Sequence record: NC_133119.1
Reading direction: 5' to 3' (one strand)
DNA from: Escherichia phage EscoHU1
Length of the DNA stretch: 64,000 nucleotides
Every line of letters begins with the position of its first letter. Positions within the stretch are counted from its first letter, which is position 1. The position numbers were made by a program, and so were the translations under genes. The notes below the pieces were generated by a model, which did no database searches, had not been told where the DNA came from, and saw only the letters and a list, made by a program, of their open reading frames with translations. Shown here piece after piece: positions 32,679-62,001 of the stretch.

Positions 32679-32684
32679 ATTATT

Positions 32685-33755: not shown

Positions 33756-33764
33756 ATAATTTGT

Positions 33765-33950: not shown

Positions 33951-33977
33951 ATCTATTTCCTCAGTTGTTAATGAAAT

Positions 33978-34060: not shown

Positions 34061-34067
34061 TAAAATT

Positions 34068-34143
34068 TGGACGACCGCATGAGATTCGAACTCACATAAG
34101 GAGGTTTTGCAGGCCTCCGCCTAAGCCATTCAGCCAACGGTCG
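34068..34143 (-). tRNA. tRNA-Cys (GCA)
   Basis: Loop CTGCAAA, U73, 3' end GTCGTCCA. Confidence 0.7.
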
Positions 34144-34321: not shown

Positions 34322-34560
34322 CCAACACGCTCCGGTAAATCTTCGAGTTTATATTGAGTAGCCACATTAGCAGCATCTAGTAACAAACCCATATGTTTAA
34401 GAATTCTAGTGATAGCCTCGCCTTCTGCTTCTTCTACAAAGCAACGTAGTTGCATGAAGTCAATACCACCATCCATACCAGAGAAAATGTTAAGTAAGCG
34501 AAGCATTACCAGCTTACGTTCTTTTAATTCTTGTTCTGTCATGTTGCTTCTCCAGTTCAA
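34318..34560 (-). CDS. hypothetical protein
   Basis: 80 aa ORF. Confidence 0.4.
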   Translation of the reverse strand: MNWRSNMTEQELKERKLVMLRLLNIFSGMDGGIDFMQLRCFVEEAEGEAITRILKHMGLLLDAANVATQYKLEDLPERVG

Positions 34561-34571
34561 TTTATGTAATA

Positions 34572-34600
34572 ATTATACAGAACTTTAAGCGGTTAAGCAA
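34572..34600 (-). promoter_or_regulatory. early sigma70 promoter (-35 TTGCTT, -10 TATAAT)
   Basis: 17-bp spacer. Confidence 0.7.
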
Positions 34601-34880
34601 CTACATTTTTCAGAAATATGATGCCTTTCTTTTTCTTCTTATATTTCCATGTTAATGGATTCTGTCGATTATGAACGCTTGAGATCTTTGTCTCGTCAAA
34701 GTTCTTCAGTACCATGTAATCACAGGCCAACTGTTCCAGTGGGATGTGATCTCCGTCAAAAGCATAAACATAAGGCTGTTGACTGGCACGATAATGATAT
34801 ACTTTGTTAATTCTGCGTTTCAGTGACTTATCCGCACAGTAAATAAAGAAGTTTTCAGGATGCATCAGCATCTCCTTCAA
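34593..34880 (-). CDS. hypothetical protein
   Basis: 95 aa ORF. Confidence 0.4.
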   Translation of the reverse strand: MKEMLMHPENFFIYCADKSLKRRINKVYHYRASQQPYVYAFDGDHIPLEQLACDYMVLKNFDETKISSVHNRQNPLTWKYKKKKKGIIFLKNVVA

Positions 34881-34882
34881 AT

Positions 34883-34957
34883 TGGTGCACCCCGTTGGTA
34901 ACGATCCAACCTCTCAAGCTCTTCAGGCAAGCGCTAATCCATCTCAGCTAAAGGTGC
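34883..34957 (-). tRNA. tRNA-Phe-like (GAA), two U-U mismatches in anticodon stem, non-canonical T-loop
   Basis: Acceptor GCACCTT/GGGGTGC + ACCA; loop CTGAAGA; T-loop ATCGTTA. Confidence 0.5.
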
Positions 34958-34963
34958 AAATAT

Positions 34964-35043
34964 TGGCAAACCTACTAGGACTCGAACCTAGACCGTACGG
35001 TTTTGGAGACCGACATGCTGTCCAGTAACACTCTAGGGATGCA
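34964..35043 (-). tRNA. tRNA-Trp-like (CCA), 5' acceptor strand does not pair
   Basis: TCGGTCTCCAAAACCGT arm, T-arm, G73-CCA like E. coli tRNA-Trp; 5' half aberrant. Confidence 0.4.
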
Positions 35044-35048
35044 GAAAT

Positions 35049-35125
35049 TGGCGTCCTGTGCGGGGATCGAACCCGCAAATCCTACCTTGAAAGGGTAGTG
35101 ACTTTACCAGTTTGTCTAACAGGAC
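35049..35125 (-). tRNA. tRNA-Glu (UUC)
   Basis: GTCCTGT...ACAGGACGCCA ends, loop CTTTCAA. Confidence 0.8.
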
Positions 35126-35132
35126 TTAAATT

Positions 35133-35223
35133 TGGTGTTGGATGATGGAGTCGAACCACCCGAGACCCTTCCGAGTCGGCAGATTTACAGTCTGCTTCGC
35201 TACCTCTACGATACTAATCCAAC
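35133..35223 (-). tRNA. tRNA-Tyr (GUA)
   Basis: 91 nt; anticodon arm GCAGACTGTAAATCTGC identical to E. coli tRNA-Tyr. Confidence 0.85.
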
Positions 35224-35348
35224 ATATTTGAATGAAAAGTAAGTCGGTTAAACTCAAGGTGGAATATTTCAGGAAATCCTGACTTTACCCCTAAAAGCAA
35301 CTCGCTTAGTTACTTCTCATTCAGATATGTTTTCCAAATTAGATAACT

Positions 35349-35377
35349 ATTATACCAAGTTTTGAAGGACTGAGCAA
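35349..35377 (-). promoter_or_regulatory. early sigma70 promoter (-35 TTGCTC, -10 TATAAT) preceding tRNA-Tyr
   Basis: 17-bp spacer. Confidence 0.6.
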
Positions 35378-35413
35378 GTCAAATTTTAAAGAACTTGCTC
35401 AGTGCTATATCAG

Positions 35414-35689
35414 TTACTCGAAGCTAGGAGTGACACTCAGTTTGAATGGAAGCTCGAACACTTCTTCATAATCATCATTGAGCGTAATTACACGACCTTC
35501 TAGCTTAGTCATGGTGATTTCGATATCAGCCCTTGCATCAGGAGCCATACCAGCTTCCACACATTTAGCTTTGACTTCCGGCAGAAGTTCTACATCGTAG
35601 AAATAAAGCCATTCAATCTCACCCTCCCAGCCACCCCAGGATTTACAAACAGCACTTTCAACACCAGTTGCAGTAACACGTTTTGACAT
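35414..35689 (-). CDS. hypothetical acidic protein
   Basis: 91 aa ORF. Confidence 0.45.
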   Translation of the reverse strand: MSKRVTATGVESAVCKSWGGWEGEIEWLYFYDVELLPEVKAKCVEAGMAPDARADIEITMTKLEGRVITLNDDYEEVFELPFKLSVTPSFE

Positions 35690-35719
35690 TCGTTAACCCC
35701 TTCATCAATTTATATAACT

Positions 35720-35749
35720 ATTATATCAGAAATCTTAAGTAAAAAGCAA
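35720..35749 (-). promoter_or_regulatory. early sigma70 promoter (-35 TTGCTT, 18 bp, -10 TATAAT)
   Basis: Hexamers read on minus strand. Confidence 0.65.
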
Positions 35750-35779
35750 GTACATTTTTAAAATTTCTGCTTGGAGGAG

Positions 35780-36052
35780 TTAAACTCCTGATTCTTCAGC
35801 CAGATCAAGCCCAACCAACGTGATTGCCATAATAGCTGCGCCATGTTCTTTCTCTCCTAGCTCTTTGGCTTGAGTGAGAATATTGAGGAATTGCTTTTGA
35901 AAATCTGCAACTTCTTCTGTCATGCCTGCTTCAGCAATAATTCCTTTCAGCATAAAGCGTTGTGCTGTAATTTCAGGATTAGCCATTTGTTTTCTCCAGT
36001 TATTTAGAATGTAAGCCAAACTTAGGATCATAGCGATCGTAAGTCGTACCAT
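35780..36052 (-). CDS. hypothetical protein
   Basis: 90 aa ORF. Confidence 0.45.
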   Translation of the reverse strand: MVRLTIAMILSLAYILNNWRKQMANPEITAQRFMLKGIIAEAGMTEEVADFQKQFLNILTQAKELGEKEHGAAIMAITLVGLDLAEESGV

Positions 36053-36137
36053 TAGTTGAAGCCTTGATGCTATGAAAACGACAGTACATAAATTTACGTA
36101 GTGCTTTCTTAATAGCTTTCATTTTATTTCCTTAATT

Positions 36138-36214
36138 TGGTAGGGGTGGTGGGATTCGAACCCACAAAACCCGAATTTTAAGTCCGGTACCTATGCCAAT
36201 TCGATTACACCCCC
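36138..36214 (-). tRNA. tRNA with anticodon UAA (Leu by anticodon) in class-I frame
   Basis: 77 nt; stem CCGGA/TTCGG, loop CTTAAAA, 5-nt variable loop. Confidence 0.6.
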
Positions 36215-36223
36215 ATGTAATCT

Positions 36224-36571
36224 TTAGAGTTCGTAACCCTGAATATATCGAGCAAAACCAGTAATCTCGAACTGAATTGCCCATGCTACTTCCATATGCT
36301 CAATCTTACTAAAATGAGCGTCAGACTGTTCTAGGAAATAACGAGAGATTATAGGGAACTCAATGTCAAAATCTTCCTTATCCATACCATAGAAGAAGTT
36401 TCCAGAAATATTACGAACTTCACGAAAGAAATCCTCAATCTGAAAATCCATCAGAGGATAAGTATATTCCTCTTTGCTATCATCCGTTTGGAAGAAGCGG
36501 AAATGCACAAGGCAAGAGCCAATCAGATTTACTGCTGGAGTAGTGTAAATATCCATGTTAACCTCGATCAA
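36224..36571 (-). CDS. hypothetical acidic protein
   Basis: 115 aa ORF. Confidence 0.45.
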   Translation of the reverse strand: MIEVNMDIYTTPAVNLIGSCLVHFRFFQTDDSKEEYTYPLMDFQIEDFFREVRNISGNFFYGMDKEDFDIEFPIISRYFLEQSDAHFSKIEHMEVAWAIQFEITGFARYIQGYEL

Positions 36572-36743
36572 TATCTAGAGAAATTCCAAATTCTGGATTA
36601 ATACCAGAACCATTACATGCTGCACATTCCCACTCTTCAAAACGCATATCGCCAGGTTCAGCATCATTAATAGTACCTGTTCCATGGCAGTGAGCACACA
36701 TGCACTCTTCTAGTTCTTGTTTAAGCTCTTGAAACTTAGACAT
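36558..36743 (-). CDS. small Cys-rich protein
   Basis: 61 aa; CAHCHGTG...CAACNGSG. Confidence 0.4.
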   Translation of the reverse strand: MSKFQELKQELEECMCAHCHGTGTINDAEPGDMRFEEWECAACNGSGINPEFGISLDIDRG

Positions 36744-36760
36744 ATAGTCTCCTAGTTAAT

Positions 36761-36838
36761 TGGTGGCTCCCGGAGGATTCGAACCTACCTACCTTTCGCT
36801 TATGAGGCGACGGCTCATACCAAATGAGCTTGAGAACC
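36761..36838 (-). tRNA. tRNA, anticodon CAU (third CAU species)
   Basis: Acceptor GGTTCTC/GGGAGCC, loop CTCATAA, CCA encoded. Confidence 0.65.
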
Positions 36839-36843
36839 AAATT

Positions 36844-36915
36844 TGGAGGAAGATGCCAGACTCGAACTGGCACACCGTGTCTCCACAGCTACTGGCTGTT
36901 TAGCAAACAGCTCCC
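36844..36915 (-). other. tRNA-like element (T-arm, acceptor, CCA) with truncated anticodon region
   Basis: GCCAGTTCGAGTCTGGC + ATCTTCC-T-CCA; only about 16 nt between D-arm and T-arm. Confidence 0.3.
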
Positions 36916-36951
36916 TTACCTTTAGGGTTAATCTTCCAAATTTATGAATAT

Positions 36952-36980
36952 ATTATATTAGAAATTTAGCTTCATGGCAA
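36952..36980 (-). promoter_or_regulatory. early sigma70 promoter (-35 TTGCCA, -10 TATAAT)
   Basis: 17-bp spacer; overlaps stop of upstream gene. Confidence 0.6.
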
Positions 36981-37431
36981 GAAAATTTTTCAAGTTTTCT
37001 GTATTCATTTCATCTAAATCCATGAGGGAAGTAAACCCATTTAGTTTTTTAGCAAACTTCTCACCAGCAGAATCATTATCGCCTACGGCTACTACTTTAA
37101 AAGGTTGTAATTTTAGCTGCTTTAGCAATGCTTTGCTAGGGGAAGATCCTAGCATTGCTAGTGCGGGATATCCCGCGTTGTGTAGTGCCACAGCTTTAAA
37201 TACAGATTCTGCAACTAATACTAGGTCTTCATTACCTGTAAGAGTTTCTAAACCCCATAGACATTGAGTAGAAGAATGCGTAAAATATTTAGCTTCAGAA
37301 GGACATTTTCCATGACCTTTAGCTGCACTAGGGTTATATGTTTGATATCCACGTAACATGCCAGAGAAATCATACAGTGGAACTGTTAACCATCCATGTG
37401 GAGAGCCAACAGTGATACTTACCACTATCAA
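36958..37431 (-). CDS. hypothetical protein (possible Toprim-like fold)
   Basis: 157 aa; LVLVAESV...VVAVGDNDSAGEKF. Confidence 0.4.
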   Translation of the reverse strand: MIVVSITVGSPHGWLTVPLYDFSGMLRGYQTYNPSAAKGHGKCPSEAKYFTHSSTQCLWGLETLTGNEDLVLVAESVFKAVALHNAGYPALAMLGSSPSKALLKQLKLQPFKVVAVGDNDSAGEKFAKKLNGFTSLMDLDEMNTENLKNFLAMKLNF

Positions 37432-37505
37432 AGCCCCTAGATAAAAGATGTTGTTTTAACTCGTCAACAGTCATATATGACTCCTATCTATAATTTATAG
37501 AATAT

Positions 37506-37534
37506 ATTATATAGAAAATTTCGGCATTAAGCAA
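37506..37534 (-). promoter_or_regulatory. early sigma70 promoter (-35 TTGCTT, -10 TATAAT)
   Basis: 17-bp spacer. Confidence 0.7.
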
Positions 37535-37542
37535 GTGAAATT

Positions 37543-37839
37543 TTACTGAACACTGCACTGATACACTTGTTTGATACGTGTCACTGACTTCTTAGTTGGA
37601 TTGATAGAAGAACCTTGCCACCAACGTGATTCTGAGCTGAGAACAGCACCAGGAACAGCTTGTTCTTTTGGCAGAACAATATCAAAACATTGCTCACCCA
37701 TATTATCTTTAATGTGTGACCAAATATCCAAAGTAAATCGTTCTAACTTATTACAAACCTGAACTTGACAAAGTTCCTGTTGCGGAGCAGCAAATACAGA
37801 AGTAGATACTAGAGTCAATGCAAGTACAATGCGTTTCAT
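37543..37839 (-). CDS. secreted protein (signal peptide)
   Basis: 98 aa; MKRIVLALTLVSTSVFAAP. Confidence 0.45.
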   Translation of the reverse strand: MKRIVLALTLVSTSVFAAPQQELCQVQVCNKLERFTLDIWSHIKDNMGEQCFDIVLPKEQAVPGAVLSSESRWWQGSSINPTKKSVTRIKQVYQCSVQ

Positions 37840-37869
37840 GTTTGATTCCTCTCTCGAATTTATAAATAT

Positions 37870-37898
37870 ATTATACAGAAATTTTCTATATTAAGCAA
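37870..37898 (-). promoter_or_regulatory. early sigma70 promoter (-35 TTGCTT, -10 TATAAT)
   Basis: 17-bp spacer. Confidence 0.7.
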
Positions 37899-37916
37899 GT
37901 GAAAATTTCTGTATAA

Positions 37917-37937
37917 TAGCCCTCGCTTAGAGGGCTA
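37917..37937 (-). terminator. hairpin terminator (TAGCCCTC-GCTTA-GAGGGCTA)
   Basis: Directly after PnuC-like stop. Confidence 0.45.
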
Positions 37938-37945
37938 TAACTACT

Positions 37946-38638
37946 TTATTTGTTAACGCGTACAAAGTATCCTTTATAGGCTCCAAGAATGGAGTTACCT
38001 AAGAATACTAGCCACATTGCTAGGATTGCATAAGATGCACCTGTAGATTGAGCAGTTACAAGCCAAATGTATACAGTACCAATGTTAATAGCAATCCAGA
38101 TCAGCCATTGTTCAGCATATTGCTTGACCATAAGCCACATAGCAATCACACTACCAACCGCAGTAAATGCATCGAGCATCGGGAATGGATCAGCTGTAGT
38201 AGCAAGGAAGCTACCGTAACCTAAAGTAGCTACTGCTAGAACCCCTAGAGTCAGCAAAGCTTGGGCTTTAGTCAGAATCTTAGTTGGAACATCTGGCAGA
38301 TTACTTGGCTTATTTTTATGCCATAAGTACATTCCGTAGAACTGCATAGGAACGTAGTACAATAGGTTTAATGCTGCGTTACCATAAAGATCTGCATTTA
38401 AAGCTGTAATACCATAGGTAAGAACACCAACTAAGCCCCAAATATAGTTGGAAACGCGTCCTTTTGCAACCAAAATAACACAAACTACGTTGGTTATCGC
38501 AGTAGCCCAATCTAGAGGTGTACCATTATAGTTAGCTAAACTAATGAAGGCAACCGCTATGAACAGCCACAGATATTCCAGAGGTTTCCAGTTTTTAAAG
38601 TCATTTACGAGATAGTTAGTCATATTAAAACTCTCCAA
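37946..38638 (-). CDS. pnuC: nicotinamide riboside/NMN transporter PnuC-like
   Basis: 230 aa multi-TM; family resemblance (WLFIAVAFISL...YGMYLW). Confidence 0.65.
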   Translation of the reverse strand: MESFNMTNYLVNDFKNWKPLEYLWLFIAVAFISLANYNGTPLDWATAITNVVCVILVAKGRVSNYIWGLVGVLTYGITALNADLYGNAALNLLYYVPMQFYGMYLWHKNKPSNLPDVPTKILTKAQALLTLGVLAVATLGYGSFLATTADPFPMLDAFTAVGSVIAMWLMVKQYAEQWLIWIAINIGTVYIWLVTAQSTGASYAILAMWLVFLGNSILGAYKGYFVRVNK

Positions 38639-39680
38639 CGTTAAAGTGATGAATCAGCCAGTCTACTGCGTTTACTGCTTCGTCCATACGAACTTTGTAG
38701 TCCGGGGAGTCGATGTAAACAGTACGCCCTTCAGGGAACTGATTTGGAAATTCTTTCTTCATCTGCTCGAACAGTTCAGAAGTAATTGAACGATCGGAGT
38801 TAATACGTAAACCATCATCTACCCACTTGACAGTAGGCGCTAGAACAATTACTAAATCGTAATGTTCTTCTTTTGCAATTGCTGTAACCACAGGGTTCTT
38901 ACGATGTTCATAAAGTCTGTGGTAGAACTCAGTAATAAAAGCATTTGTATCCACAAACATGATCTTATTTGCAGTACGTTCTGCTTCAAATTCTAGCTCT
39001 TTGTGTCTGAACGCAATTTTACTATAATCTTCGCTGGTAAGCAGATTTTCGTTACCAACTAGATCAACTTCACAATACGTTCGGCCATATTCTTCTACCC
39101 ACGAAGTGTTGTATAGCTTCGCAAGGTATTTTGTTAAAGTAGTCTTTCCCGAGCTTTCAGTCCCAATGATTACAACCTTACGCACGTAATCTTTACGAAC
39201 TACGCTAGGAAGAAACTCCCAATACTTCATAAGATCATTACGAATCATTGTAGCTGAGATTGGAACACGAGTCCGATCAGAATCTACAATATAATGACCA
39301 AACTTCGGCAGATATTTCTTATATTCTGCATCATAGTCTAGTTCGCTAGAGAAAATGGTGATCTCAGGCAAATGTCCATAATTTTCATTAAGGATTCTAG
39401 CATATTCCGGCCAACCATTCGGATATTCAGGAATATCATCTTCAATAATGTACTCTACCGAAACGTGCTCAATATCCGCGTAAGTTTGTTCTAACCAACG
39501 AAGTCGATTCTTTAACTGTAATACTTCCTGATCACGTGTGTTCTGCTTATCCAGCCAACGATTATCATGACTAACTACAACAATAACTCGTTCACACATA
39601 GTTGCTGCTGTGTTTATTAGGTTAATATGACCACGCGTTAATGGTGCGAACTTACCAATTACTAGACCAGTCTTAATCAT
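38625..39680 (-). CDS. nadR: NadR-like bifunctional NMN adenylyltransferase / ribosylnicotinamide kinase
   Basis: GKFAPLTRGH nucleotidyltransferase motif + P-loop GTESSGKTT; start set at MIKTGLVIGKF after GAGG RBS. Confidence 0.7.
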   Translation of the reverse strand: MIKTGLVIGKFAPLTRGHINLINTAATMCERVIVVVSHDNRWLDKQNTRDQEVLQLKNRLRWLEQTYADIEHVSVEYIIEDDIPEYPNGWPEYARILNENYGHLPEITIFSSELDYDAEYKKYLPKFGHYIVDSDRTRVPISATMIRNDLMKYWEFLPSVVRKDYVRKVVIIGTESSGKTTLTKYLAKLYNTSWVEEYGRTYCEVDLVGNENLLTSEDYSKIAFRHKELEFEAERTANKIMFVDTNAFITEFYHRLYEHRKNPVVTAIAKEEHYDLVIVLAPTVKWVDDGLRINSDRSITSELFEQMKKEFPNQFPEGRTVYIDSPDYKVRMDEAVNAVDWLIHHFNVGEF

Positions 39681-39710
39681 ATTTGATTCCTCTCTCAAAT
39701 TTATAAATAT

Positions 39711-39739
39711 ATTATACAGAGAATTTAGCATTCAAGCAA
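39711..39739 (-). promoter_or_regulatory. early sigma70 promoter (-35 TTGCTT, -10 TATAAT)
   Basis: 17-bp spacer. Confidence 0.7.
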
Positions 39740-39855
39740 TCGAATTTTTTAACTTTTTAGAGGAAAATCGCAGGGCACTTAAGGGTAGCAGATGAGTGGT
39801 GAGGACCAGAAATTGTTACCCCAATAAAAATCCGGGGGCAATTTTTAAAGACCCC

Positions 39856-39884
39856 TTGACATTTTCGCTGGGATAGGATAAAGT
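39856..39884 (+). promoter_or_regulatory. candidate plus-strand promoter (-35 TTGACA, -10 TAAAGT)
   Basis: 17-bp spacer; -10 is weak. Confidence 0.3.
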
Positions 39885-39945
39885 ATATGTTATGGATGAG
39901 TGATCAAAGAGACACACATTTTCTATATACTAGGAGGTGTCAAAA

Positions 39946-40974
39946 ATGACAGAAGAAGTAGCTAAGAAACCTGAATCTCTAAGTGAAGTAGCAGCAGAAC
40001 TGCATCGTCACGAAGAATCAGACAAGAAAAAGTGGGAAAAGCTTAAAGCTCAAGAGCGAGCTGACGAGCATCATTATCATCATCACCATCATGAACACTA
40101 TGAGGAAGATGATGAAGACGACGAAGAAGAAGATGAACATGAACATCATGGTTATCACAAATATGGAGAAAGAAAAATGCAAGAACCAGTAAACGTATTC
40201 ACTAACGGCTTCCCTGGCCTGATGGGTGGTTACCCAGCTAACGCAGGTGCTTTCGGTGGAGAAGGTATGGGTCTATTCGGAGCTATCCTAATCGGTGCTC
40301 TATTAACAGGCGGATTCGGTGGATTTGGTGGATTTGGCGGACGTGGAGCAGGTGCTGTGGCTGAATTAACTGGTGTAGAAACTGTTCTGAGTAACCAAAA
40401 TACGTCAAGTATCCTATCTGCAATCAATACTGCTCGTACTGAAGCTAACCAGGGAACTGGTGCTGTTCTAAGCGCAGTAAATGGTGTAGGTGCTGCAGGT
40501 GCTGCTAGCACTCAGCAGATTCTGACTTCTCTGTACGGTACTGGTGCTAACCTGTCCAATCAGATCTGTCAGGAAACTCGTAGCGTTATTCAGGGTCAGT
40601 TTGACCTGTCTCGCCAGATCGATCAGTCCTTCGCGGCTAACCAGATCGCTCGTGCTCAAGACAAGTTTGATGCTGCTCAGATCGCTTTCCAGCAGACTAT
40701 TCAGACTAACAACCAGTTCGCTGCTGTAGCTGCACAGGCGTGCGCTAACCAGAACGCTCTGGAACGTCAGATCGCTGAATGTTGCTGTGAACTTCAGACT
40801 GCAATCGCTGGTGTAACTACTGCGCGTATTCAGGATGAATTAGATGAATGCCGTCTGCGTGAAGCAATCGCTGCAGGTAATGGTGCTAATGGTCAGGTAA
40901 TCAACCAAATCGCTGTAAGTCTTGGTGCTATCACTCAGACTCTAGCTGGTCTGCAGGCTAAACTGCCGGCTTAA
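39946..40974 (+). CDS. low-complexity protein: His/acidic-rich N-terminus, Gly-rich segment, Q/A-rich C-terminus
   Basis: AGGAGG RBS then ATG (track's GTG start at 39937 trimmed); HHYHHHHHEHYEEDDEDDEEEDEHEHH; GGFGGFGGFGG. Confidence 0.55.
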   Translation: MTEEVAKKPESLSEVAAELHRHEESDKKKWEKLKAQERADEHHYHHHHHEHYEEDDEDDEEEDEHEHHGYHKYGERKMQEPVNVFTNGFPGLMGGYPANAGAFGGEGMGLFGAILIGALLTGGFGGFGGFGGRGAGAVAELTGVETVLSNQNTSSILSAINTARTEANQGTGAVLSAVNGVGAAGAASTQQILTSLYGTGANLSNQICQETRSVIQGQFDLSRQIDQSFAANQIARAQDKFDAAQIAFQQTIQTNNQFAAVAAQACANQNALERQIAECCCELQTAIAGVTTARIQDELDECRLREAIAAGNGANGQVINQIAVSLGAITQTLAGLQAKLPA

Positions 40975-40996
40975 TAATTAAGGGGAGGAGCCCATT

Positions 40997-41431
40997 ATGA
41001 GTAAATATGGTTTTGTGAACAACGGATTTAATCAACAAATGGGCTCCCAGCAGCCCGTTCCGGGTCTAGATAACCCTTACTTACAACAGTTGCAACAGCG
41101 TTTGGCAGAAGCACAAAATATGCAACAGCAGTTCCAACAACCTGGAACTGCTAACCCTATGCAGATGATGCAACAGCAAATGGTAGGGCAGCCGCAAATG
41201 CCTCAACAAATGCAGCCTCAGATGCAGCAAATGCAACAAATGCCTCAACAGCAGCAAGTTCAACAACTCCAACATCCGCAGGTATCTGCGGAAGGACAGG
41301 CTGTTCTAGCCCTTTTCGAAGACTTCGCTAAAACAGAGGATGGGAAGCAACTTGTATCGCTTATGGGTAAGTTTAACAGCTTCTGTCAGAGTCAGGTTGC
41401 AAAAGCTCAGAATGGGGGTAATAACTCCTAA
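40997..41431 (+). CDS. Gln-rich protein
   Basis: 144 aa; GGAGG RBS; long Q/M/P repeats. Confidence 0.5.
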   Translation: MSKYGFVNNGFNQQMGSQQPVPGLDNPYLQQLQQRLAEAQNMQQQFQQPGTANPMQMMQQQMVGQPQMPQQMQPQMQQMQQMPQQQQVQQLQHPQVSAEGQAVLALFEDFAKTEDGKQLVSLMGKFNSFCQSQVAKAQNGGNNS

Positions 41432-41440
41432 GGAGAAATT

Positions 41441-41635
41441 ATGTGTTGTAGAAAACCTGTGTCATGCTGTCCTATGCCTGTAGCACGTTGTTGCTCTCCA
41501 GCAATGTTTACACAAATACCGGTGTTCAATCCCTTTGCCTTTAAGCCTACTCTTATCCTGCCCCCTAGAGTAGATTTTCAGTCAAGATTGGTCTCCCGTA
41601 TGGGTGGTTGCTGTACACCGAGAGTATGGTTCTAA
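41441..41635 (+). CDS. small Cys-rich protein
   Basis: 64 aa; AGGAG RBS; 9 Cys. Confidence 0.4.
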   Translation: MCCRKPVSCCPMPVARCCSPAMFTQIPVFNPFAFKPTLILPPRVDFQSRLVSRMGGCCTPRVWF

Positions 41636-41648
41636 ACCAAAAAACAAA

Positions 41649-41673
41649 AGCCCCTACGTCTTTTGACTAGGGG
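41649..41673. terminator. bidirectional rho-independent terminator
   Basis: GCCCCTA-loop-TAGGGGC with T-runs on both sides. Confidence 0.65.
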
Positions 41674-41682
41674 CTTTCTTGT

Positions 41683-42213
41683 TTATAAATTTAAGTAATC
41701 TAGAGAAGGTATCACACCATCAAATTCTTCTAGGATAGCAAACTCTCCAGCAAATTCTTTCCTCATTTCGTTAGCTTTTGCTATCGCACTTCCAAGATCT
41801 TCGTAACCAAAAGATCCTCCTGATCTTTTAATACCTTCCTTATCTCTTATTAATACTCTCCATTTTTGCCTGTTCTTCTCCCAGCATACATTAGCATACC
41901 CAGACTTAGACTTTAATTTCTTATTTCTTTGATTTTGAGAATCTGTAGATTCTCTTAGATTGTCCCATGCATTATTATTTCTAATCCTATCTTTATGATC
42001 GACCATGCTAGGTAGGTATCCTTTTACATAAAGGAATGCTAGAACATGGGCTAAGTACATTTTTCCAGAGATCTGAATTCTGATATATCCATCAGATGTT
42101 AGGCTTCCCGCAATGCTGCCGGCCTTCTTGTTTCCTCTACTAACCTTATATGTAAACAATCCAGTTTCTTGATCATAGTCAAAAAGCTCTTTCAATTTTT
42201 CTTGAGTTAACAT
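41683..42213 (-). CDS. HNH endonuclease with AP2-like DNA-binding domain
   Basis: 176 aa; YLAHVLAF...VDHKDRIRNNNAWDNLR; C-terminal GYANVCWEK...RSGGSFGYEDLGSAIAKANEMR. Confidence 0.7.
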   Translation of the reverse strand: MLTQEKLKELFDYDQETGLFTYKVSRGNKKAGSIAGSLTSDGYIRIQISGKMYLAHVLAFLYVKGYLPSMVDHKDRIRNNNAWDNLRESTDSQNQRNKKLKSKSGYANVCWEKNRQKWRVLIRDKEGIKRSGGSFGYEDLGSAIAKANEMRKEFAGEFAILEEFDGVIPSLDYLNL

Positions 42214-42287
42214 AAGTTCCTTAAATACAGAAAAGCCCTGCGCTCTCCAGGGAACGCAGGGCTTACTTCAGAGATTACATGCTGGTA

Positions 42288-43232
42288 TTACTTATTACGC
42301 ATATCCATGATCATCTGGCCATCGTAACCAGTTCCCACTACTGTTTGCGGTACACCACCTTGGTATTTTTCAGCACGAAGCATTTCAACTTCCAGCTGCT
42401 TCCAACGAATCATTTCAGGAGTAATGGTACGTTGCAGAGCGGCGTTAGCTTCAGCTTCTTTCTTAGCTGCGTACAGTTTAGCATCTGCGTCACGTTCGTT
42501 AGCTACTGCCATGTTTTCACGAGCAGAGCGATCTGCTTCAGCTTGCTTAACTTTCTGCTGTGCTTCTTGTTCAACACGAGCCAGTTCAGCTTTTGCTGCG
42601 TTAACTTGTTCTTCACGAACTTTTGTGTTCTGTACCTGTTCCATAATTACCGGTGGCAGAGTAATATCCTGAAGGAATACTTGCTTAACGGTGTAACCAT
42701 AAGGGCGCGCATACTCTTCTACTTCTTGCTGAATAGCAGTTTGCAGTTGAGCCTGAATCTTAGCGTCGAACAGATCTTGTGCTTTTGGTACAGACTTACC
42801 AAACTCACGAATCGTAGATAGCATCTTCTCTTCAACGTATTTGTTAAGAGCTTGATCCTGAGTACCTGCGTTAACACGGTTCATAGGAGCTTTAGCTCCA
42901 TCAAACTGTAACATAACGGTAATGTCAACAGTAGACTTAAACTTATCCTGGCTAGGAACCTGAAGTTTATCCAGTTTCATAGAAATATCTTTCGTACTAA
43001 AAGTATCAAAAGAGGCTAATGGGTTAACAATATGGAAGCCTGGCAATACAGGATTCGGGCTAACTTTACCCAGGAAAGTTTGAGTCTTAACAGTACCATC
43101 CTGAACAACTGTATAGGAATTGAGAGCCAGAATAAGAGCACCAAGACCAACAGCAGCACCAACACCCCAACGTTTAATAGTACGAATTACTTTTTGCTCA
43201 GAAGTCAGTTCTTTAGTGTTTTTAGTAAACAT
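42288..43232 (-). CDS. SPFH/band-7 (stomatin/prohibitin/HflK-like) membrane protein
   Basis: N-terminal TM then SPFH-like core and long coiled coil; start moved to MFTKNTKEL to clear the tRNA. Confidence 0.65.
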   Translation of the reverse strand: MFTKNTKELTSEQKVIRTIKRWGVGAAVGLGALILALNSYTVVQDGTVKTQTFLGKVSPNPVLPGFHIVNPLASFDTFSTKDISMKLDKLQVPSQDKFKSTVDITVMLQFDGAKAPMNRVNAGTQDQALNKYVEEKMLSTIREFGKSVPKAQDLFDAKIQAQLQTAIQQEVEEYARPYGYTVKQVFLQDITLPPVIMEQVQNTKVREEQVNAAKAELARVEQEAQQKVKQAEADRSARENMAVANERDADAKLYAAKKEAEANAALQRTITPEMIRWKQLEVEMLRAEKYQGGVPQTVVGTGYDGQMIMDMRNK

Positions 43233-43265
43233 ATATTTCCTTTGTTTAGTTACAGTTAATAAAAT

Positions 43266-43340
43266 TGGCCGAGGTGACAGGATTCGAACCTGCATAAAGG
43301 AATTTAGAAGACTCCTGCCTATCCCTTAGACTACACCCCG
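43266..43340 (-). tRNA. tRNA-Arg (UCU)
   Basis: Loop CTTCTAA, T-arm GCAGGTTCGAATCCTGT, G73-CCA. Confidence 0.75.
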
Positions 43341-56762: not shown

Positions 56763-56791
56763 TTGACATCCGCCTTCGAATGAGTTATAAT
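56763..56791 (+). promoter_or_regulatory. consensus sigma70 promoter (-35 TTGACA, 17 bp, -10 TATAAT) before nrdD
   Basis: Both hexamers perfect; AAGGAGAG RBS and ATG at 56821. Confidence 0.8.
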
Positions 56792-58701: not shown

Positions 58702-58726
58702 AGCCAGGTTGCTAGTCGACCTGGCT
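58702..58726 (+). terminator. rho-independent terminator after nrdD
   Basis: AGCCAGGT-loop-ACCTGGCT then TTTTATTTTATTT. Confidence 0.7.
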
Positions 58727-59084: not shown

Positions 59085-59288
59085 ATGAAAAACGTAAAAC
59101 ATCTTAAGTATCGCTTAATTTACAACGGACGTATGGAAACAGAAGATCTAGCTCAGCTAGCGATCAATTCAGATGAAGTTACAGTTCGTGCTTTGTCCAT
59201 CGAGAAGCTGCGTGCTTCTTACGAAAATCGTATTATGGAATTGGAGGAAAAACTTTATGGACTTCTTGAATCAGAATCTAAAAAGTAA
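59085..59288 (+). CDS. hypothetical protein
   Basis: 67 aa ORF. Confidence 0.4.
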   Translation: MKNVKHLKYRLIYNGRMETEDLAQLAINSDEVTVRALSIEKLRASYENRIMELEEKLYGLLESESKK

Positions 59289-59451
59289 TTTAGAAAATAT
59301 GCTTATGGAGCAGTGGAATGCTGGGTATAATGCTGGAGTAGCTACCTGTATTGCTGGTTTGGATATGCTTATTAAGCAAGAGAAGGTTCGCCCAGAAGAA
59401 GCAATTCTGCTCCAAAATATCATCGAAGGATTCAAGCAAGGAATCGTATAA
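59257..59451 (+). CDS. hypothetical protein
   Basis: GGAGG RBS then ATG; stop overlaps Sir2-like start. Confidence 0.4.
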   Translation: MDFLNQNLKSNLENMLMEQWNAGYNAGVATCIAGLDMLIKQEKVRPEEAILLQNIIEGFKQGIV

Positions 59452-60302
59452 TGCGTAGACTAATCGTTGTTAGTGGTGCAGGTTTGAGTGTAGATAGTGG
59501 TGTTCGTGCTTTCCGTACTGATACTGCTAGTGGGAAATCCTTGTGGGATGAGTACGATCTAGAGGAAGTATGTAGCTTGCCTAACTTTGAAGCTGGCTTC
59601 CGTCGCTTCTGTGGTGAAGATGACCCTAACTACTTCAGTGCTCGTTTCCCTGGCATTGATGAAGATGGTAACGATCTGTATCTCAAGACTCATGAGTTCT
59701 ACAACATGCGTCGTCAGGAATTACAGACTGTTGAGCCTAACATTGCCCATCTGCGAATTGCAGAATGGTTCCAGCGTTATGGTGCGGATAGCGTGAAGAA
59801 CTTCACTACTAACGTTGATGACCTTCTGGAACGTGCTGGTATCCCTCGTGATGAAATCATTCACGCTCACGGGTACTTGAAAGAGGTGATCTATCGTCAG
59901 GGTCGCAACCAAATCATCGAAGATGTTGGGTATACTGCGATTGCCCCTGAGGATTACGAATGGGTAAAACCAAACGTAACATTCTTTGGTGAGACGGCTC
60001 CGTGGTATATGGGTCAGATTAACCTGTTTGATACACTTACTAGCAATGATATGGTTATTGTAGTAGGTTGTAGCAACCAAGTAATCGACTTCAACTGGGA
60101 GCTATTTCCTGCTGTATGTCGTGGAACTAAGATGATGGTTGTTAACCCACAAGTTCGTTATGACGAACAGCTTGAGTATGAGAAACGTGGTGTTACTGTA
60201 TGGCGTGCTGGAGCTGCCGAAGTTTTTGGTAACAAACAATTCATTGGCCAAGTTGAAGCTTTTATGGAAGGAACTATTTATGCACCAGAAAAGCATAGGT
60301 GA
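59451..60302 (+). CDS. Sir2-like (sirtuin-family) NAD-dependent enzyme, no obvious zinc ribbon
   Basis: 283 aa; GAGLSVDSGVRAFR, TTNVDDLLERAG, HAHG, VTFFGE. Confidence 0.65.
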   Translation: MRRLIVVSGAGLSVDSGVRAFRTDTASGKSLWDEYDLEEVCSLPNFEAGFRRFCGEDDPNYFSARFPGIDEDGNDLYLKTHEFYNMRRQELQTVEPNIAHLRIAEWFQRYGADSVKNFTTNVDDLLERAGIPRDEIIHAHGYLKEVIYRQGRNQIIEDVGYTAIAPEDYEWVKPNVTFFGETAPWYMGQINLFDTLTSNDMVIVVGCSNQVIDFNWELFPAVCRGTKMMVVNPQVRYDEQLEYEKRGVTVWRAGAAEVFGNKQFIGQVEAFMEGTIYAPEKHR

Positions 60303-60442
60303 TCTTTTAGTATGGCCGGACGGTAGTTGGTGCTACCGTTTCGAATTTGCTACCGATGACTTCTCATGGAAGAGTGATGATTTCTGTGTTATCTACGAAG
60401 ATACAGCAGAATGGAAAGAATTCCTGATTAAGGAGGGAGAAT

Positions 60443-60628
60443 ATGGTGAAGAAGATTTTTAAGGGTATCTGGAAAGGTCTAGTATGGTTTGTCAACCTAA
60501 TTGGTGTGATTACCATTTATTCTCTGTTCCTATCTGTTATATGGGGTAAAGGTGAACTGAAGGTTCCAGTTCCTTTTACTGATGAAGTTAAAGTCTGGAC
60601 GTGGGATGCTACTGGTGGAAATAAGTAA
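60443..60628 (+). CDS. small membrane protein
   Basis: 61 aa with TM segment. Confidence 0.4.
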   Translation: MVKKIFKGIWKGLVWFVNLIGVITIYSLFLSVIWGKGELKVPVPFTDEVKVWTWDATGGNK

Positions 60629-61121
60629 TACTCCTGTGATTTTCCTGGATATTGATGGGGTGCTCAATTCGAGCATCTCTCACCATCATGCCCCAGATAA
60701 TGAAAAGCTGTTCTTTGGCAGTGATTGGGTTTATAAACCATTACTCCAGGCTTTTCAGAACTTCCTTAAACCTTCTCCAATAATGATTGTTGGGGTATCT
60801 TCATGGTTTTCTGTACGAAACGAGATGGAGAACGTTCAGATTATGACCGGGCTCGGTTTGATCGATCGTTTCCTTGGTACAACAGATTTTACTGGAGGTG
60901 GTTTATCTCGAGGTAATTCTGTCTTACGTTTCGTAGAAAAACATAAGCTCAAGCATTGGTGCGTCCTAGATGATGCTGGTGCTATGATGTACCAATTTCC
61001 TACTGTTATTGTAAATGGCAGGACTGGAATAAACCTTCAAGATTTAAATGCTATCAGCTATATGCTGGAATTTAGTCCAGATCTTGAAATGTGTAAGGCT
61101 CTTCAGAAACTTAAGGTATAA
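60582..61121 (+). CDS. HAD-like hydrolase
   Basis: FLDIDGVLN motif; true start may be the internal Met at 60606. Confidence 0.45.
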   Translation: MKLKSGRGMLLVEISNTPVIFLDIDGVLNSSISHHHAPDNEKLFFGSDWVYKPLLQAFQNFLKPSPIMIVGVSSWFSVRNEMENVQIMTGLGLIDRFLGTTDFTGGGLSRGNSVLRFVEKHKLKHWCVLDDAGAMMYQFPTVIVNGRTGINLQDLNAISYMLEFSPDLEMCKALQKLKV

Positions 61122-61123: not shown

Positions 61124-61552
61124 ATGTTCAATAATATTTTCATGAAAGAGGTAAATCCTATGCTTCTCAACTTCTGGTGCTCTCTCCCTAATGGTATGTA
61201 TAATGAAACCATCAATCTGCTCAAGATTTGGTGTGAGAATAACGATATCTTCTTATCCTTTAAAGGCCCGCTAGAGGAAGCTCCGTGTATTGGAGTTAGC
61301 GTGGATTTAGGGGAGGGAGTAGAAGAGATTGTAGACTGGAAAGAACTCGATGAAATGGGTCTGGTTTTTGCCTTGAACCATAAGCTGTTTATGCCTGCAA
61401 ATCACCGTCTTATTGTAAATTATCGCACTGGTGAAGCTCCTGCTTTCCAGGTAAATGAACGTGAGGGCTGGTCATATTCGCCCGAGGAAGTAAATGAGGG
61501 GATTCAGAAACTTCGTCGTTTCGGATATATGATCCCAGGTTTAACTGCTTAA
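61124..61552 (+). CDS. hypothetical protein, tandem paralog A
   Basis: 142 aa; C-terminal half similar to next ORF. Confidence 0.5.
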   Translation: MFNNIFMKEVNPMLLNFWCSLPNGMYNETINLLKIWCENNDIFLSFKGPLEEAPCIGVSVDLGEGVEEIVDWKELDEMGLVFALNHKLFMPANHRLIVNYRTGEAPAFQVNEREGWSYSPEEVNEGIQKLRRFGYMIPGLTA

Positions 61553-61561: not shown

Positions 61562-61957
61562 ATGGAACAAGTATTTTGGCGTCAGATAGATCCTAGTTTG
61601 GTAGAGCGTGCTGAGGGGCTCCTTGCACGTTGGTTGGGGGTTGACAAGGTTAGTGTAACATTTCCGTTTACTTCTGTAACAGACCCTAGTGTAGGTGTCT
61701 TTGTGGACGAAAATGAAGATGATGGTTGGGAAGCTGACTGGAATGAATTGTCCAGCATGGGCTTGATTGTTGCCCTCAACTTCTCTATATTCCATCCACG
61801 TGGCTTAGCCATTACACGTGACCCCGAAACTGGTGAATCCCCTTATCTTTTGCAAGTAGAAGATGATATTTGGGAGTACACCGAAGATATTCTCGAAGAA
61901 GCTAAAGGTCAATTAAATCGCATTGGAATCTATGTCCCAGGCCTAAATGATGATTGA
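61562..61957 (+). CDS. hypothetical protein, tandem paralog B
   Basis: 131 aa; GGAGG RBS; shares ...GL[IV][FV]ALN...[IM]PGL with previous ORF. Confidence 0.5.
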   Translation: MEQVFWRQIDPSLVERAEGLLARWLGVDKVSVTFPFTSVTDPSVGVFVDENEDDGWEADWNELSSMGLIVALNFSIFHPRGLAITRDPETGESPYLLQVEDDIWEYTEDILEEAKGQLNRIGIYVPGLNDD

Positions 61958-61980: not shown

Positions 61981-62001
61981 ACCGAGTCAAAATGACTCGG
62001 T
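61981..62001 (+). terminator. rho-independent terminator
   Basis: ACCGAGTCA-AAAT-GACTCGGT then TTTCTCT. Confidence 0.65.

What the first reader, a model, noticed from the sequence alone, without database searches (positions are those of the whole stretch)
59451..60302. Sir2-like protein lacking the usual zinc-ribbon Cys pairs
The GAGLSxxSGxxxFR, TTNVD and HG motifs of the sirtuin fold are present, but I do not see the typical CxxC...CxxC zinc module. That is more like the SIR2 NADase domains used in defence systems than housekeeping deacetylases. In a phage genome it could be an NAD-consuming effector, an ADP-ribosyltransferase, or a decoy.
Basis: partly seen in the sequence, partly recalled or inferred. 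Interest (0 to 1): 0.5.

Follow-up and report, generated by a model that had tools for sequence, protein, structure and literature searches.

The report
Zinc-free phage sirtuin, already described
This is the well-annotated "Sir2-like" gene of a T5-like phage; it belongs to a published phage sirtuin clade that lost the zinc-binding cysteines, keeps an intact NAD-using active site, resembles CobB-type sirtuins rather than defence NADases, and has an untested function predicted to be RNA repair.

Summary
ORF 59451-60302 (+) encodes a 283-aa SIR2-family protein (Pfam PF02146, E 1.4e-21; PHROG 2162, E 8e-107). It has GAGLS..FR, TTNVD and HG motifs and no CxxC.

The window is a T5-like phage. The gene is 98-99% identical to "Sir2-like" genes annotated in many records.

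- No PADLOC defence model matches.
- The ribbon's beta-hairpin remains. The first Cys pair is substituted and the second lies in an 8-residue deletion.
- Zinc-less sequences form one large, mostly viral clade, sister to relatives with four Cys.

Both main points are published: zinc loss in phage Sir2 (Skliros 2016), and the clade with its predicted Tpt1/KptA-like RNA 2'-phosphate removal (Iyer 2022).

I reproduced the gene linkage. RNA-end-healing genes lie near 22 of 37 zinc-less phage-type loci, against 2 of 89 four-Cys loci. Here a HAD_SAK_2 phosphatase lies 313 bp downstream.

Function remains untested. RNA-repair ADP-ribosyl transfer is my leading reading (about 0.4); a CobB-like deacylase is the main rival.

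The parts
59451..60302 (+). Sir2-like gene (283 aa), zinc-less phage-type sirtuin
   Evidence: ORF listed. Pfam PF02146 E 1.4e-21. PHROG 2162 E 7.8e-107. 98-99% nt identity to annotated Sir2-like genes of T5-like phages. AF2 model with mean pLDDT 88.8.
59475..59516 (+). GAGLSVDSGVRAFR NAD-binding motif (residues 9-22)
   Evidence: Read from the sequence. G9, A10, G11, S13, S16, F21 and R22 are invariant in 50 homologues.
59592..59678 (+). Variable insertion in the helical module (residues 48-76), absent in many clade members
   Evidence: Gapped in many rows of alignment A1 and in about 90% of representatives. The model's confidence is somewhat lower here.
59805..59819 (+). TTNVD motif (residues 119-123), equivalent to canonical TQN(I/V)D with Q replaced by T
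   Evidence: Position 120 is T in 74% of zinc-less representatives and Q in 84% of four-Cys representatives.
59868..59873 (+). Catalytic His140-Gly141
   Evidence: 100% conserved in 54 zinc-less and 80 four-Cys representatives. Aligns with the catalytic HG of CobB.
59874..59966 (+). Remnant of the zinc ribbon (residues 142-172): a beta-hairpin 141-158 followed by a loop, with no Cys
   Evidence: DSSP strands 141-150 and 153-158 in the AF2 model. First Cys pair replaced and second pair deleted. The IGY/VGY and W-x-KPN motifs are shared with relatives that have four Cys.
59257..59451 (+). Small ORF (64 aa, PHROG 5827, unknown function) whose stop overlaps the Sir2 start; diverges together with the Sir2 allele
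   Evidence: Only 34% identical to its SP15 counterpart while the flanking backbone is 90-97% identical.
60280..60462 (+). Small ORF (60 aa, PHROG 5116, unknown function) overlapping the Sir2 3' end by 23 nt
   Evidence: 57% identical to its SP15 counterpart. Homologues follow Sir2 in other T5-like loci.
60443..60628 (+). Small ORF (61 aa, PHROG 11166, basic, pI 9.7)
60615..61121 (+). HAD_SAK_2 phosphatase (HAD domain of 'Swiss Army Knife' RNA repair proteins), the predicted partner of the sirtuin
   Evidence: Pfam PF18143 E 3e-19. The DxDG motif (FLDIDGVLN) is visible in the translation. It stays next to Sir2 even where gene order is inverted (L008, L010). It also sits next to more distant sirtuins in L129 and L158.
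61124..61552 (+). DUF7415 protein a
   Evidence: Pfam PF24187 E 2.6e-35.
61562..61957 (+). DUF7415 protein b
   Evidence: Pfam PF24187 E 4.2e-28.
58702..58726 (+). Terminator-like hairpin after nrdD, the upstream boundary of the block
   Evidence: 10-bp stem followed by a T run.
61981..62001 (+). Terminator-like hairpin after the second DUF7415 gene, the downstream boundary of the block
   Evidence: 9-bp stem followed by a T run.

Best explanation
The gene encodes a catalytically competent, zinc-free member of a phage-specific sirtuin clade that descends from CobB-like (class III-type) sirtuins.

Shown:
- It has the sirtuin Rossmann fold.
- It keeps a complete set of NAD-binding and catalytic residues.
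- The Cys4 site is lost while the hairpin scaffold is retained.
- In several unrelated phage lineages its homologues sit beside RNA-end-healing and ADP-ribose-phosphate-processing genes.

Inferred mechanism, following the prediction of Iyer et al. 2022:
1. After a host nuclease cuts a tRNA or other RNA, leaving a 2',3'-cyclic phosphate, a phosphoesterase opens or trims the end. In this phage that would be the HAD_SAK_2 enzyme three genes downstream.
2. The sirtuin uses NAD+ to remove a 2'-phosphate in a Tpt1/KptA-like way. The phosphate oxygen attacks C1'' of NAD+ and releases nicotinamide.
3. His140 then activates the ribose 2''-OH to attack the phosphorus. [quoted passage not shown]

My confidence that this is an active NAD-consuming enzyme of this clade is about 0.9. 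My confidence in the RNA-repair chemistry is about 0.4, and that is the figure given below.
For: Identity:
- Pfam SIR2 and PHROG 2162 both match.
- The gene is 98-99% identical to annotated T5-like phage genes.
- The AF2 model is confident, and its best matches are CobB, Sir2-Af1 and SIRT5.

Active site under selection:
- G9, A10, G11, S13, S16, F21, R22, N121, D123, H140, G141, E181, G206, S208 and N232 are invariant across 50 homologues with 59% mean column identity.
- H140, G141 and N121 are 100% conserved in 134 representatives clustered at 50% identity.

Gene context, checked here independently of the paper:
- HAD_SAK_2 lies at 60615-61121. It is still adjacent in T5-like contigs where the order is HAD then Sir2.
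- rV5 and PVP-SE1 carry Rnl1, a cREC gene, a PNK-like kinase and Sir2.
- A metagenomic relative carries Metallophos, RNA_lig_T4_1, AAA_33 and Sir2.
- A jumbo Asteriusvirus carries Sir2, a Nudt16-like Nudix and cREC.
- Census: 22 of 37 distinct zinc-less phage-type loci have such a neighbour within about 4-6 kb, against 1 of 26 viral and 1 of 63 bacterial four-Cys loci (Fisher p 9e-13 against the pooled four-Cys loci). Without the seed loci the count is 14 of 25.

Other:
- The Sir2-to-DUF7415 block is bracketed by two terminator-like hairpins.
- A prior publication makes the same prediction (PMC9503650, section 3.7.3).
- Sirtuin step 2 (His-assisted attack by the ribose 2'-OH) parallels Tpt1 step 2, whose mechanism is summarised in the abstract of PMC11417386. 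This parallel is my inference.
Against: - No biochemical or genetic data on this clade turned up in the paper library.
- The protein and its whole clade are acidic: query pI 4.82, clade median 5.1. That is unusual for an RNA-binding enzyme.
- My phage-derived HMMs find no RNA ligase, PNK-like kinase or cREC gene in this 64-kb window. The T5-like version would therefore be a minimal two-enzyme system that depends on host ligation.
- Some clade members (phi92-like, Vibrio phage Va3, L013) have no recognisable RNA-repair neighbour.
- The acyl-lysine-tunnel residues (VxFFGE) and the class III Y84-x-x-R87 motif are retained, which fits a deacylase equally well.
- The census has limits. The neighbour HMMs were seeded from zinc-less loci, and many loci are phylogenetically related.
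- DT57C has lost both genes and is viable. The module is therefore dispensable, and the loss says nothing about its chemistry.
Confidence: 0.4

Rival explanations
1. It is a CobB-like NAD-dependent protein lysine deacylase (deacetylase or desuccinylase). It would remodel host or phage proteins during infection, for example by activating acetyl-CoA synthetase or removing inhibitory acylations. The zinc ribbon would simply be replaced by packing of the remaining hairpin.
For: - All of the closest solved relatives are deacylases.
- The FGE loop, the hydrophobic VxFF residues, the catalytic His and the class III Y84-x-x-R87 motif are retained.
- An acidic enzyme (pI 4.8) would suit basic protein substrates.
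- This is the standard database annotation.
- It is the reading of Skliros et al. 2016, who also reported expression of the Vibrio-phage homologue 20 min after infection.
Against: - By established knowledge, the Cys4 zinc site is needed for activity in canonical sirtuins. Here one knuckle is substituted and the other deleted.
- The post-GTS 'VYPAAGF' strand, which pairs with substrate peptides in CobB-type enzymes, is replaced by 'VI(N/D)FNWELFP'.
- Q of TQNID is replaced by T, and T of GTS by C or S.
- A deacylase role does not explain the strong, repeated linkage to RNA ligase, PNK-like kinase, cREC, HAD_SAK_2 and Nudix genes.
Confidence: 0.3
2. It is a sirtuin-type mono-ADP-ribosyltransferase acting on a protein or small-molecule acceptor, in the manner of SirTM but without a macrodomain partner. 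The neighbouring phosphoesterases would process ADP-ribose-derived products.
For: - Intact NAD-cleaving residues.
- Nudt16-like Nudix and phosphoesterase neighbours could act on ADP-ribose adducts.
Against: - No macrodomain was found among the neighbours.
- It is closer to CobB and Sir2-Af1 than to SirTM.
- Nothing points to a specific acceptor.
Confidence: 0.12
3. One reading: it is a defence-type SIR2 NADase. It would be an NAD+-depleting effector used by the phage against the host or against competing phages.
For: - It lacks the zinc-binding cysteines, as defence SIR2 domains do.
- Its catalytic residues are intact.
Against: - No PADLOC model matches at E<=1, and the Pfam match is to SIR2 proper.
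- There is no sensor or partner domain, and the remnant ribbon hairpin is present.
- An unregulated NADase would deplete the NAD+ that the infected cell needs. A related T5-like phage (Bas30) is reported to rebuild NAD+ (PMC13464706).
Confidence: 0.08
4. It is an inactive remnant or a decoy that binds NAD+, or a host factor, without catalysis.
For: - Loss of the zinc site could destabilise a canonical sirtuin.
- The gene is dispensable in DT57C.
Against: - Every NAD-binding and catalytic residue is conserved over a deep, diverse clade.
- The AF2 model is confident and well packed.
- The gene is retained in about 1000 phage records.
Confidence: 0.03

Closest known systems
Phage zinc-less sirtuin clade (PHROG 2162; T5 'Sir2-like protein'; rV5, PVP-SE1 and KVP40-type Sir2/CobB), described by Skliros et al. 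2016 (PMC5107563) and Iyer et al. 2022 (PMC9503650)
   Same: Full-length match to PHROG 2162. 46-99% identity to these phage proteins. Same loss of the zinc ligands. Same 'type 3' neighbourhood with a HAD 'Swiss-army-knife' phosphatase that Iyer et al. describe for phage SP15.
   Different: Nothing essential differs. This allele is only about 51% identical to the T5/SP15 allele, although the flanking genes are 90-97% identical. It also carries a 29-residue insertion in the helical module that many members lack.
E. coli CobB, archaeal Sir2-Af1 and SIRT5 (canonical class III-type sirtuin deacylases)
   Different: No Cys4 zinc site: first pair substituted, second pair deleted. TQNID becomes TTNVD, GTS becomes GCS, and the 'VYPAAGF' strand becomes 'VIDFNWELFP'. 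It is viral, acidic, and linked to RNA-repair genes rather than to acetyl-CoA metabolism.
Tpt1/KptA RNA 2'-phosphotransferase
   Same: Proposed functional analogue only. It is an NAD+-dependent enzyme that sits beside RNA ligase and end-healing genes, with a two-step chemistry that sirtuin catalysis could mimic.
   Different: Unrelated fold with no sequence similarity. Tpt1 activity has not been shown for any sirtuin. This protein is acidic.
Defence SIR2 NADases (ThsA, DSR1/DSR2, SIR2-HerA, SIR2-APAZ/pAgo, Avs5)
   Same: Sirtuin-type Rossmann core, catalytic His and Asn, and no zinc-binding cysteines.
SirTM (macrodomain-linked ADP-ribosylating sirtuins)
   Different: No linked macrodomain. The canonical catalytic His is retained. 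It is closer to CobB.

Membership tests
Sirtuin / SIR2 family proper (Pfam PF02146) | Profile match above the curated threshold | tested here: met
   77.7 bits against a cut-off of 24, E 1.4e-21.
Sirtuin / SIR2 family proper (Pfam PF02146) | NAD-binding and catalytic motifs: GAGxS, (S/T)xxFR, (T)QN(I/V)D, HG, FGE, GTS, N | tested here: met
   All are present and conserved. There are two conservative departures: T120 for Q and C207 for T.
Canonical sirtuin deacylases (CobB / Sir2Tm / SIRT1-7 type) | Cys4 zinc ribbon (CxxC...CxxC) between HG and FGE | tested here: not met
   No Cys lies in residues 141-181. The first pair aligns to Y148 and G151 or N153, and the second pair lies in a deletion.
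Canonical sirtuin deacylases (CobB / Sir2Tm / SIRT1-7 type) | Overall fold: Rossmann domain plus a small helical/ribbon domain | tested here: met
Canonical sirtuin deacylases (CobB / Sir2Tm / SIRT1-7 type) | Peptide-pairing strand after GTS ('V-Y/x-P-A') | tested here: not met
   The query has V211-I-D-F214-N-W where CobB-type proteins have VYPAAGF. That this strand pairs with the substrate peptide is from established structural knowledge and was not tested here.
Canonical sirtuin deacylases (CobB / Sir2Tm / SIRT1-7 type) | NAD-dependent lysine deacylase activity | not testable with these tools
   Needs enzyme assays.
Defence-type SIR2 NADases (ThsA, DSR, SIR2-HerA, SPARSA, Avs5) | Match to defence-system SIR2 profiles | tested here: not met
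   PADLOC-DB gives 0 families at E<=1.
Defence-type SIR2 NADases (ThsA, DSR, SIR2-HerA, SPARSA, Avs5) | Fused or adjacent sensor/partner (SLOG, HerA, pAgo/APAZ, STAND, TIR partner) | tested here: not met
   Single-domain 283-aa protein. The neighbours are small ORFs, HAD_SAK_2 and DUF7415.
Defence-type SIR2 NADases (ThsA, DSR, SIR2-HerA, SPARSA, Avs5) | Closest structural neighbours are defence SIR2 domains | tested here: not met
Phage zinc-less sirtuin clade (PHROG 2162; 'RNA-repair sirtuins' of Iyer et al. 2022) | Full-length profile match and clade placement | tested here: met
   PHROG 2162 E 7.8e-107, residues 1-278. In an NJ tree the query groups with the T5, rV5, PVP-SE1, phi92-like, Vibrio-phage and jumbo-phage proteins, inside the zinc-less clade.
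Phage zinc-less sirtuin clade (PHROG 2162; 'RNA-repair sirtuins' of Iyer et al. 2022) | No zinc ligands, with the (D/N)(I/V)GY and W-x-KPNV(V/T)FFGE signature retained | tested here: met
Phage zinc-less sirtuin clade (PHROG 2162; 'RNA-repair sirtuins' of Iyer et al. 2022) | Neighbourhood with RNA-end or cyclic-phosphate processing genes | tested here: met
   HAD_SAK_2 (PF18143) lies 313 bp downstream, in the same terminator-bounded block. Clade-wide the figure is 22 of 37 loci.
Phage zinc-less sirtuin clade (PHROG 2162; 'RNA-repair sirtuins' of Iyer et al. 2022) | RNA 2'-phosphotransferase (Tpt1-like) activity | not testable with these tools
   This is a prediction only. No experimental paper was found.
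SirTM (class M ADP-ribosylating sirtuins) | Operon or fusion with a macrodomain | tested here: not met
   No macrodomain was found among the eight neighbouring ORFs.

The most novel reading that the evidence does not exclude
The zinc-free phage sirtuins would be the first sirtuins whose physiological substrate is nucleic acid. They would act as a sirtuin-fold analogue of Tpt1/KptA, either removing RNA 2'-phosphates or ADP-ribosylating RNA phosphate ends. Working with HAD_SAK_2, cREC, Rnl1 and PNK partners, they would repair tRNAs cut by host anticodon-nuclease defences. Loss of the zinc knuckle and remodelling of the peptide-pairing strand would be the changes that open the cleft to RNA. This idea was already predicted in 2022 from comparative genomics. 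What is missing is the experiment.
Probability: 0.33. Interest if true: 0.7.

Novelty: already known. Interest (0 to 1): 0.3.

Why it matters
As a sequence feature it is ordinary:
- The gene has been annotated as 'Sir2-like' since the T5 genome was sequenced.
- It occurs in about 1000 phage records.
- Its lack of zinc ligands and its predicted RNA-repair role are both published.

What remains open is the biochemistry. No member of this large clade has been assayed. If it proves to be an RNA 2'-phosphotransferase, it would extend sirtuin chemistry to nucleic acids. It would also add a component to phage counter-defence against tRNA-cleaving immunity. If it is a deacylase, it would show that the 'essential' sirtuin zinc site can be dispensed with. 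Either outcome can be reached with simple assays on a small, soluble-looking 32-kDa protein.

Tried and rejected
- **Domain fusions.** I looked for fusions among longer relatives that might reveal the function. Ten long representatives showed only SIR2, plus one with a WG_beta repeat. Uninformative.
- **Locating a close four-Cys relative.** Single-protein searches with P0140 in viral and genome collections found nothing. The alignment-based searches worked.
- **Phi92-like and Vibrio-phage neighbourhoods.** The neighbours have no informative Pfam hits. These lineages neither support nor contradict the RNA-repair link.
- **Other RNA-repair genes in the window.** I searched the whole 64-kb window for RNA ligase, PNK-like kinase, cREC, Metallophos and Nudix homologues using HMMs built from phage loci. 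Only HAD_SAK_2 was found.
- **NARP3 genes.** I looked for NadR-like and PnuC-like genes at the position suggested by the Bas31 annotation. The window differs there (a homing-endonuclease-like ORF and an SPFH/Band_7-like ORF), and I did not pursue it.
- **Experimental literature.** I searched for work on phage Sir2 and for T5 gene-fitness screens. Sir2 is not mentioned in the main texts. Supplements were not searched.
- **Zinc-free bacterial sirtuins.** A literature search on this topic gave nothing specific.
Full report
**1. What is there.**
The ORF at 59451-60302 (+) is real. It starts with an ATG that overlaps the stop codon of the preceding small ORF (TAATG), and an AAGGAA sequence sits 8 nt upstream. 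The 283-aa product matches Pfam SIR2 (PF02146, 77.7 bits against a cut-off of 24, E 1.4e-21). It also matches PHROG 2162 'Sir2 (NAD-dependent deacetylase)' over its full length (E 7.8e-107).

So are FGE (179-181), GCS (206-208, canonical GTS) and N232. The protein has four Cys (41, 54, 207, 223). None lies between HG and FGE, and there is no CxxC.

**2. Where the window comes from.**
The gene is 98-99.4% identical in DNA to genes annotated 'Sir2-like protein' or 'NAD-dependent deacetylase' in many T5-like phages (Demerecviridae, Tequintavirus). Examples are Salmonella phage JNwz02 and Escherichia phage DaisyDussoix (BASEL Bas31). By tblastn, 977 phage records carry a homologue. They include T5-like, rV5-like, PVP-SE1-like and phi92-like phages, KVP40-like Vibrio phages and jumbo phages.

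The local order is: nrdD, three small ORFs, Sir2, two small ORFs, HAD_SAK_2, then two DUF7415 genes. A perfect sigma-70 consensus promoter precedes nrdD. Terminator-like hairpins at 58702-58726 and 61981-62001 bracket the block that holds Sir2 and HAD_SAK_2.

**3. Is it 'defence-like'?**
No.
- PADLOC-DB returns nothing even at E<=1.
- The best PDB sequence hits are E. coli CobB (1s5p, E 1.7e-16), archaeal Sir2-Af1/Af2 and SIRT5.
- An AlphaFold2 model built on 50 homologues is confident (mean pLDDT 88.8, pTM 0.87).
- Foldseek's top 50 PDB hits are all canonical sirtuins, led by CobB at E 2e-15.

The protein is single-domain and has no sensor partner.

**4. Anatomy of the zinc loss.**
In the model, residues 141-150 and 153-158 form a beta-hairpin where the zinc ribbon sits in canonical sirtuins.

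A profile search of 1.84 billion cluster representatives found 5013 relatives at E<=1e-3. The nearest ones all lack Cys in this segment. From about E 1e-45 onward, relatives appear that have a complete CxxC...CxxC and the same family-specific motifs, for example P0140: HGELKKLWCMDCKNIFEIGYSKYDLKKCEKCGSKWIKPYIVFFGE.

In alignments, the first Cys pair of these relatives (100% and 99% Cys among 80 representatives) falls on query Y148 and on G151 or N153, depending on the alignment. The second pair falls in an 8-residue deletion between P166 and E167.

A rough NJ tree puts the zinc-less sequences in one large clade of about 50 representatives. It contains every phage protein I tested and is sister to the four-Cys group. 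A few isolated losses occur elsewhere. Four-Cys relatives occur both in bacterial genomes (Campylobacterota, Bacteroidota, and ordinary CobB of Kosakonia, Shewanella and others) and in large viral contigs.

So the zinc-less state is an old secondary loss inside a CobB-like lineage, with the scaffold kept. Changes that accompany it are Q to T in TQNID and T to C or S in GTS. The peptide-pairing 'VYPAAGF' strand of CobB reads 'VIDFNWELFP' here.

All NAD-binding and catalytic residues are invariant or nearly so. That argues against an inactive decoy.

**5. What is already published.**
Skliros et al. 2016 (PMC5107563) reported that the Sir2/CobB proteins of Vibrio phages phiSt2 and phiGrn1, and of KVP40, lack the zinc ligand in the small 'finger' domain. 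They proposed salt bridges as a substitute, measured expression at 20 min after infection, and favoured a deacetylase role.

- jumbo phages with 2H, Nudix, cREC and PIN genes;
- rV5/Mydo-type phages with T4-like RNA ligase, cREC, kinase, MazG and calcineurin-like genes;
- SP15-type (T5-like) phages with a 'Swiss-army-knife' HAD phosphatase.

They proposed that the sirtuin removes RNA 2'-phosphates as KptA does. I found no experimental test of either idea.

**6. Independent check of the context.**
- In this window, ORF 60615-61121 is HAD_SAK_2 (PF18143, E 3e-19).
- In two divergent T5-like metagenomic contigs the order is inverted (nrdD, HAD_SAK_2, small ORF, SIR2), yet the two genes stay adjacent.
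- rV5 and PVP-SE1 have RNA ligase 1, cREC (PF20274), an AAA_33 kinase and Sir2, with a phosphoesterase nearby.
- A metagenomic relative has Metallophos, RNA_lig_T4_1, AAA_33 and SIR2.
- A jumbo Asteriusvirus has Sir2, a Nudt16-like Nudix and cREC.

I built HMMs from these neighbours and scanned 173 fetched loci. 22 of 37 distinct zinc-less phage-type loci carry such a gene within the flanks. The figures are 1 of 26 for viral four-Cys loci and 1 of 63 for bacterial four-Cys loci (Fisher p 3e-6 and 9e-13). Excluding the loci that seeded the HMMs leaves 14 of 25.

Caveats: the loci are phylogenetically related, the HMMs are biased toward phage versions, and several lineages (phi92-like, Vibrio phage Va3, L013) show no such neighbour.

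**7. Mechanism.**
Shown: a sirtuin fold with an intact NAD-cleaving site, no zinc ligands, and repeated linkage to RNA-end and ADP-ribose-phosphate processing genes.

Inferred: the enzyme transfers ADP-ribose from NAD+ to a phosphate oxygen (an RNA 2'-phosphate). [quoted passage not shown] This would mirror Tpt1's two steps (abstract of PMC11417386). The HAD, cREC, Nudix and phosphoesterase neighbours would prepare the RNA end or clear the by-product.

Against this reading:
- The clade is uniformly acidic (query pI 4.82, median 5.1).
- This window has no RNA ligase, PNK-like kinase or cREC gene.
- The lysine-tunnel residues and the class III YxxR motif persist.

For these reasons a CobB-like deacylase remains a serious rival (about 0.3). 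I put the RNA-repair reading at about 0.4, other ADP-ribosyl transfer at about 0.12, a defence-like NADase at about 0.08 and a decoy at about 0.03.

**8. Verdict.**
Its 'not a housekeeping deacetylase, maybe an ADP-ribosyltransferase' leaning fits the leading published prediction.

The open and directly testable question is the substrate of this large zinc-free sirtuin clade. Interest as a scan finding is low to moderate.

Noticed in passing
window 59257-60462, compared with SP15 locus L007:3805-5155: The Sir2 gene and its two abutting small ORFs form a mosaic hot spot. Against T5-type phage SP15, NrdD is 97% and HAD_SAK_2 is 90% identical in protein. Sir2 is only 51.5% identical, and the flanking small ORFs are 34% and 57%. 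The window's allele is closer (60-64%) to those of Klebsiella T5-like phages and phi92-like myoviruses. This suggests cassette exchange or diversifying selection.
   Followed up: partly
L175:3468-3740 (Escherichia phage DT57C, NC_027356): The 'defective sir2' of DT57C is an in-frame fusion of Sir2 residues ~171-233 to HAD_SAK_2 residues 128-168. One deletion removed most of both genes and the small ORFs between them. The Sir2-HAD module is therefore dispensable for a viable T5-like phage.
   Followed up: yes
window 60615-61121; SP15 gp118 (L007:5142-5648): The HAD_SAK_2 phosphatase gene matches phrog_18062, which is labelled 'Sir2 (NAD-dependent deacetylase)'. It is accordingly annotated as Sir2 in RefSeq SP15. 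This is a propagated mis-annotation, since the protein is a HAD-fold enzyme by Pfam.
   Followed up: yes
window 61124-61552 and 61562-61957: Two tandem paralogous DUF7415 genes (PF24187, about 31% identical to each other, both very acidic with pI 4.0-4.7) close the Sir2-HAD block just before a terminator-like hairpin. Their function is unknown. They are conserved in T5-like loci, including DT57C, which lost Sir2 and HAD.
   Followed up: partly
window 27922-43340, minus strand: 28 tRNA genes, the typical large tRNA cluster of T5-like phages, covering most amino acids. This is relevant background if the Sir2-HAD module deals with tRNA damage.
   Followed up: no
window 56763-56791; 58702-58726; 61981-62001: A perfect 12/12 sigma-70 consensus promoter (TTGACA-17-TATAAT) lies upstream of nrdD. 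Two strong terminator-like hairpins bracket the small-ORF/Sir2/HAD/DUF7415 block. Terminator-like sites are enriched in the region (11 found against 4.2 expected).
   Followed up: no
loci L042, L053, L055, L058, L070, L071, L083, L087 (bacterial genomes); L143, L147, L148, L161, L165 (viral contigs): A second, separate group of sirtuins lacks the four zinc Cys. Its pattern is HGELxKxRS...(I/L)GD...DGxQL. It occurs in Bacteroidota, Marinobacter and some viral contigs, and shows no RNA-repair neighbours apart from one HAD_SAK_2 case (L158). Zinc loss in CobB-like sirtuins has therefore happened more than once and is not restricted to phages.
   Followed up: partly
window 39937-41431 and 41683-43295: There is an ORF with a His/Glu-rich and a Gly-rich segment (39937-40974) and a Gln-rich ORF (40997-41431). 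Next to them, the window differs from the Bas31 annotation at the matching position: it has a homing-endonuclease-like ORF (41683-42213, -) and an SPFH/Band_7-like ORF (42288-43295, -). I did not determine whether the NAD+-rebuilding NARP3 genes reported for the related phage Bas30 (PMC13464706) are present in this window.
   Followed up: no
clade-wide (proteins P0121-P0269 and alignment A1): The zinc-less clade is markedly acidic: median pI 5.1 with an interquartile range of 4.9-5.4, against a median of 6.3 for relatives that have four Cys. This is unexplained, and it sits uneasily with a direct RNA-binding role.
   Followed up: partly
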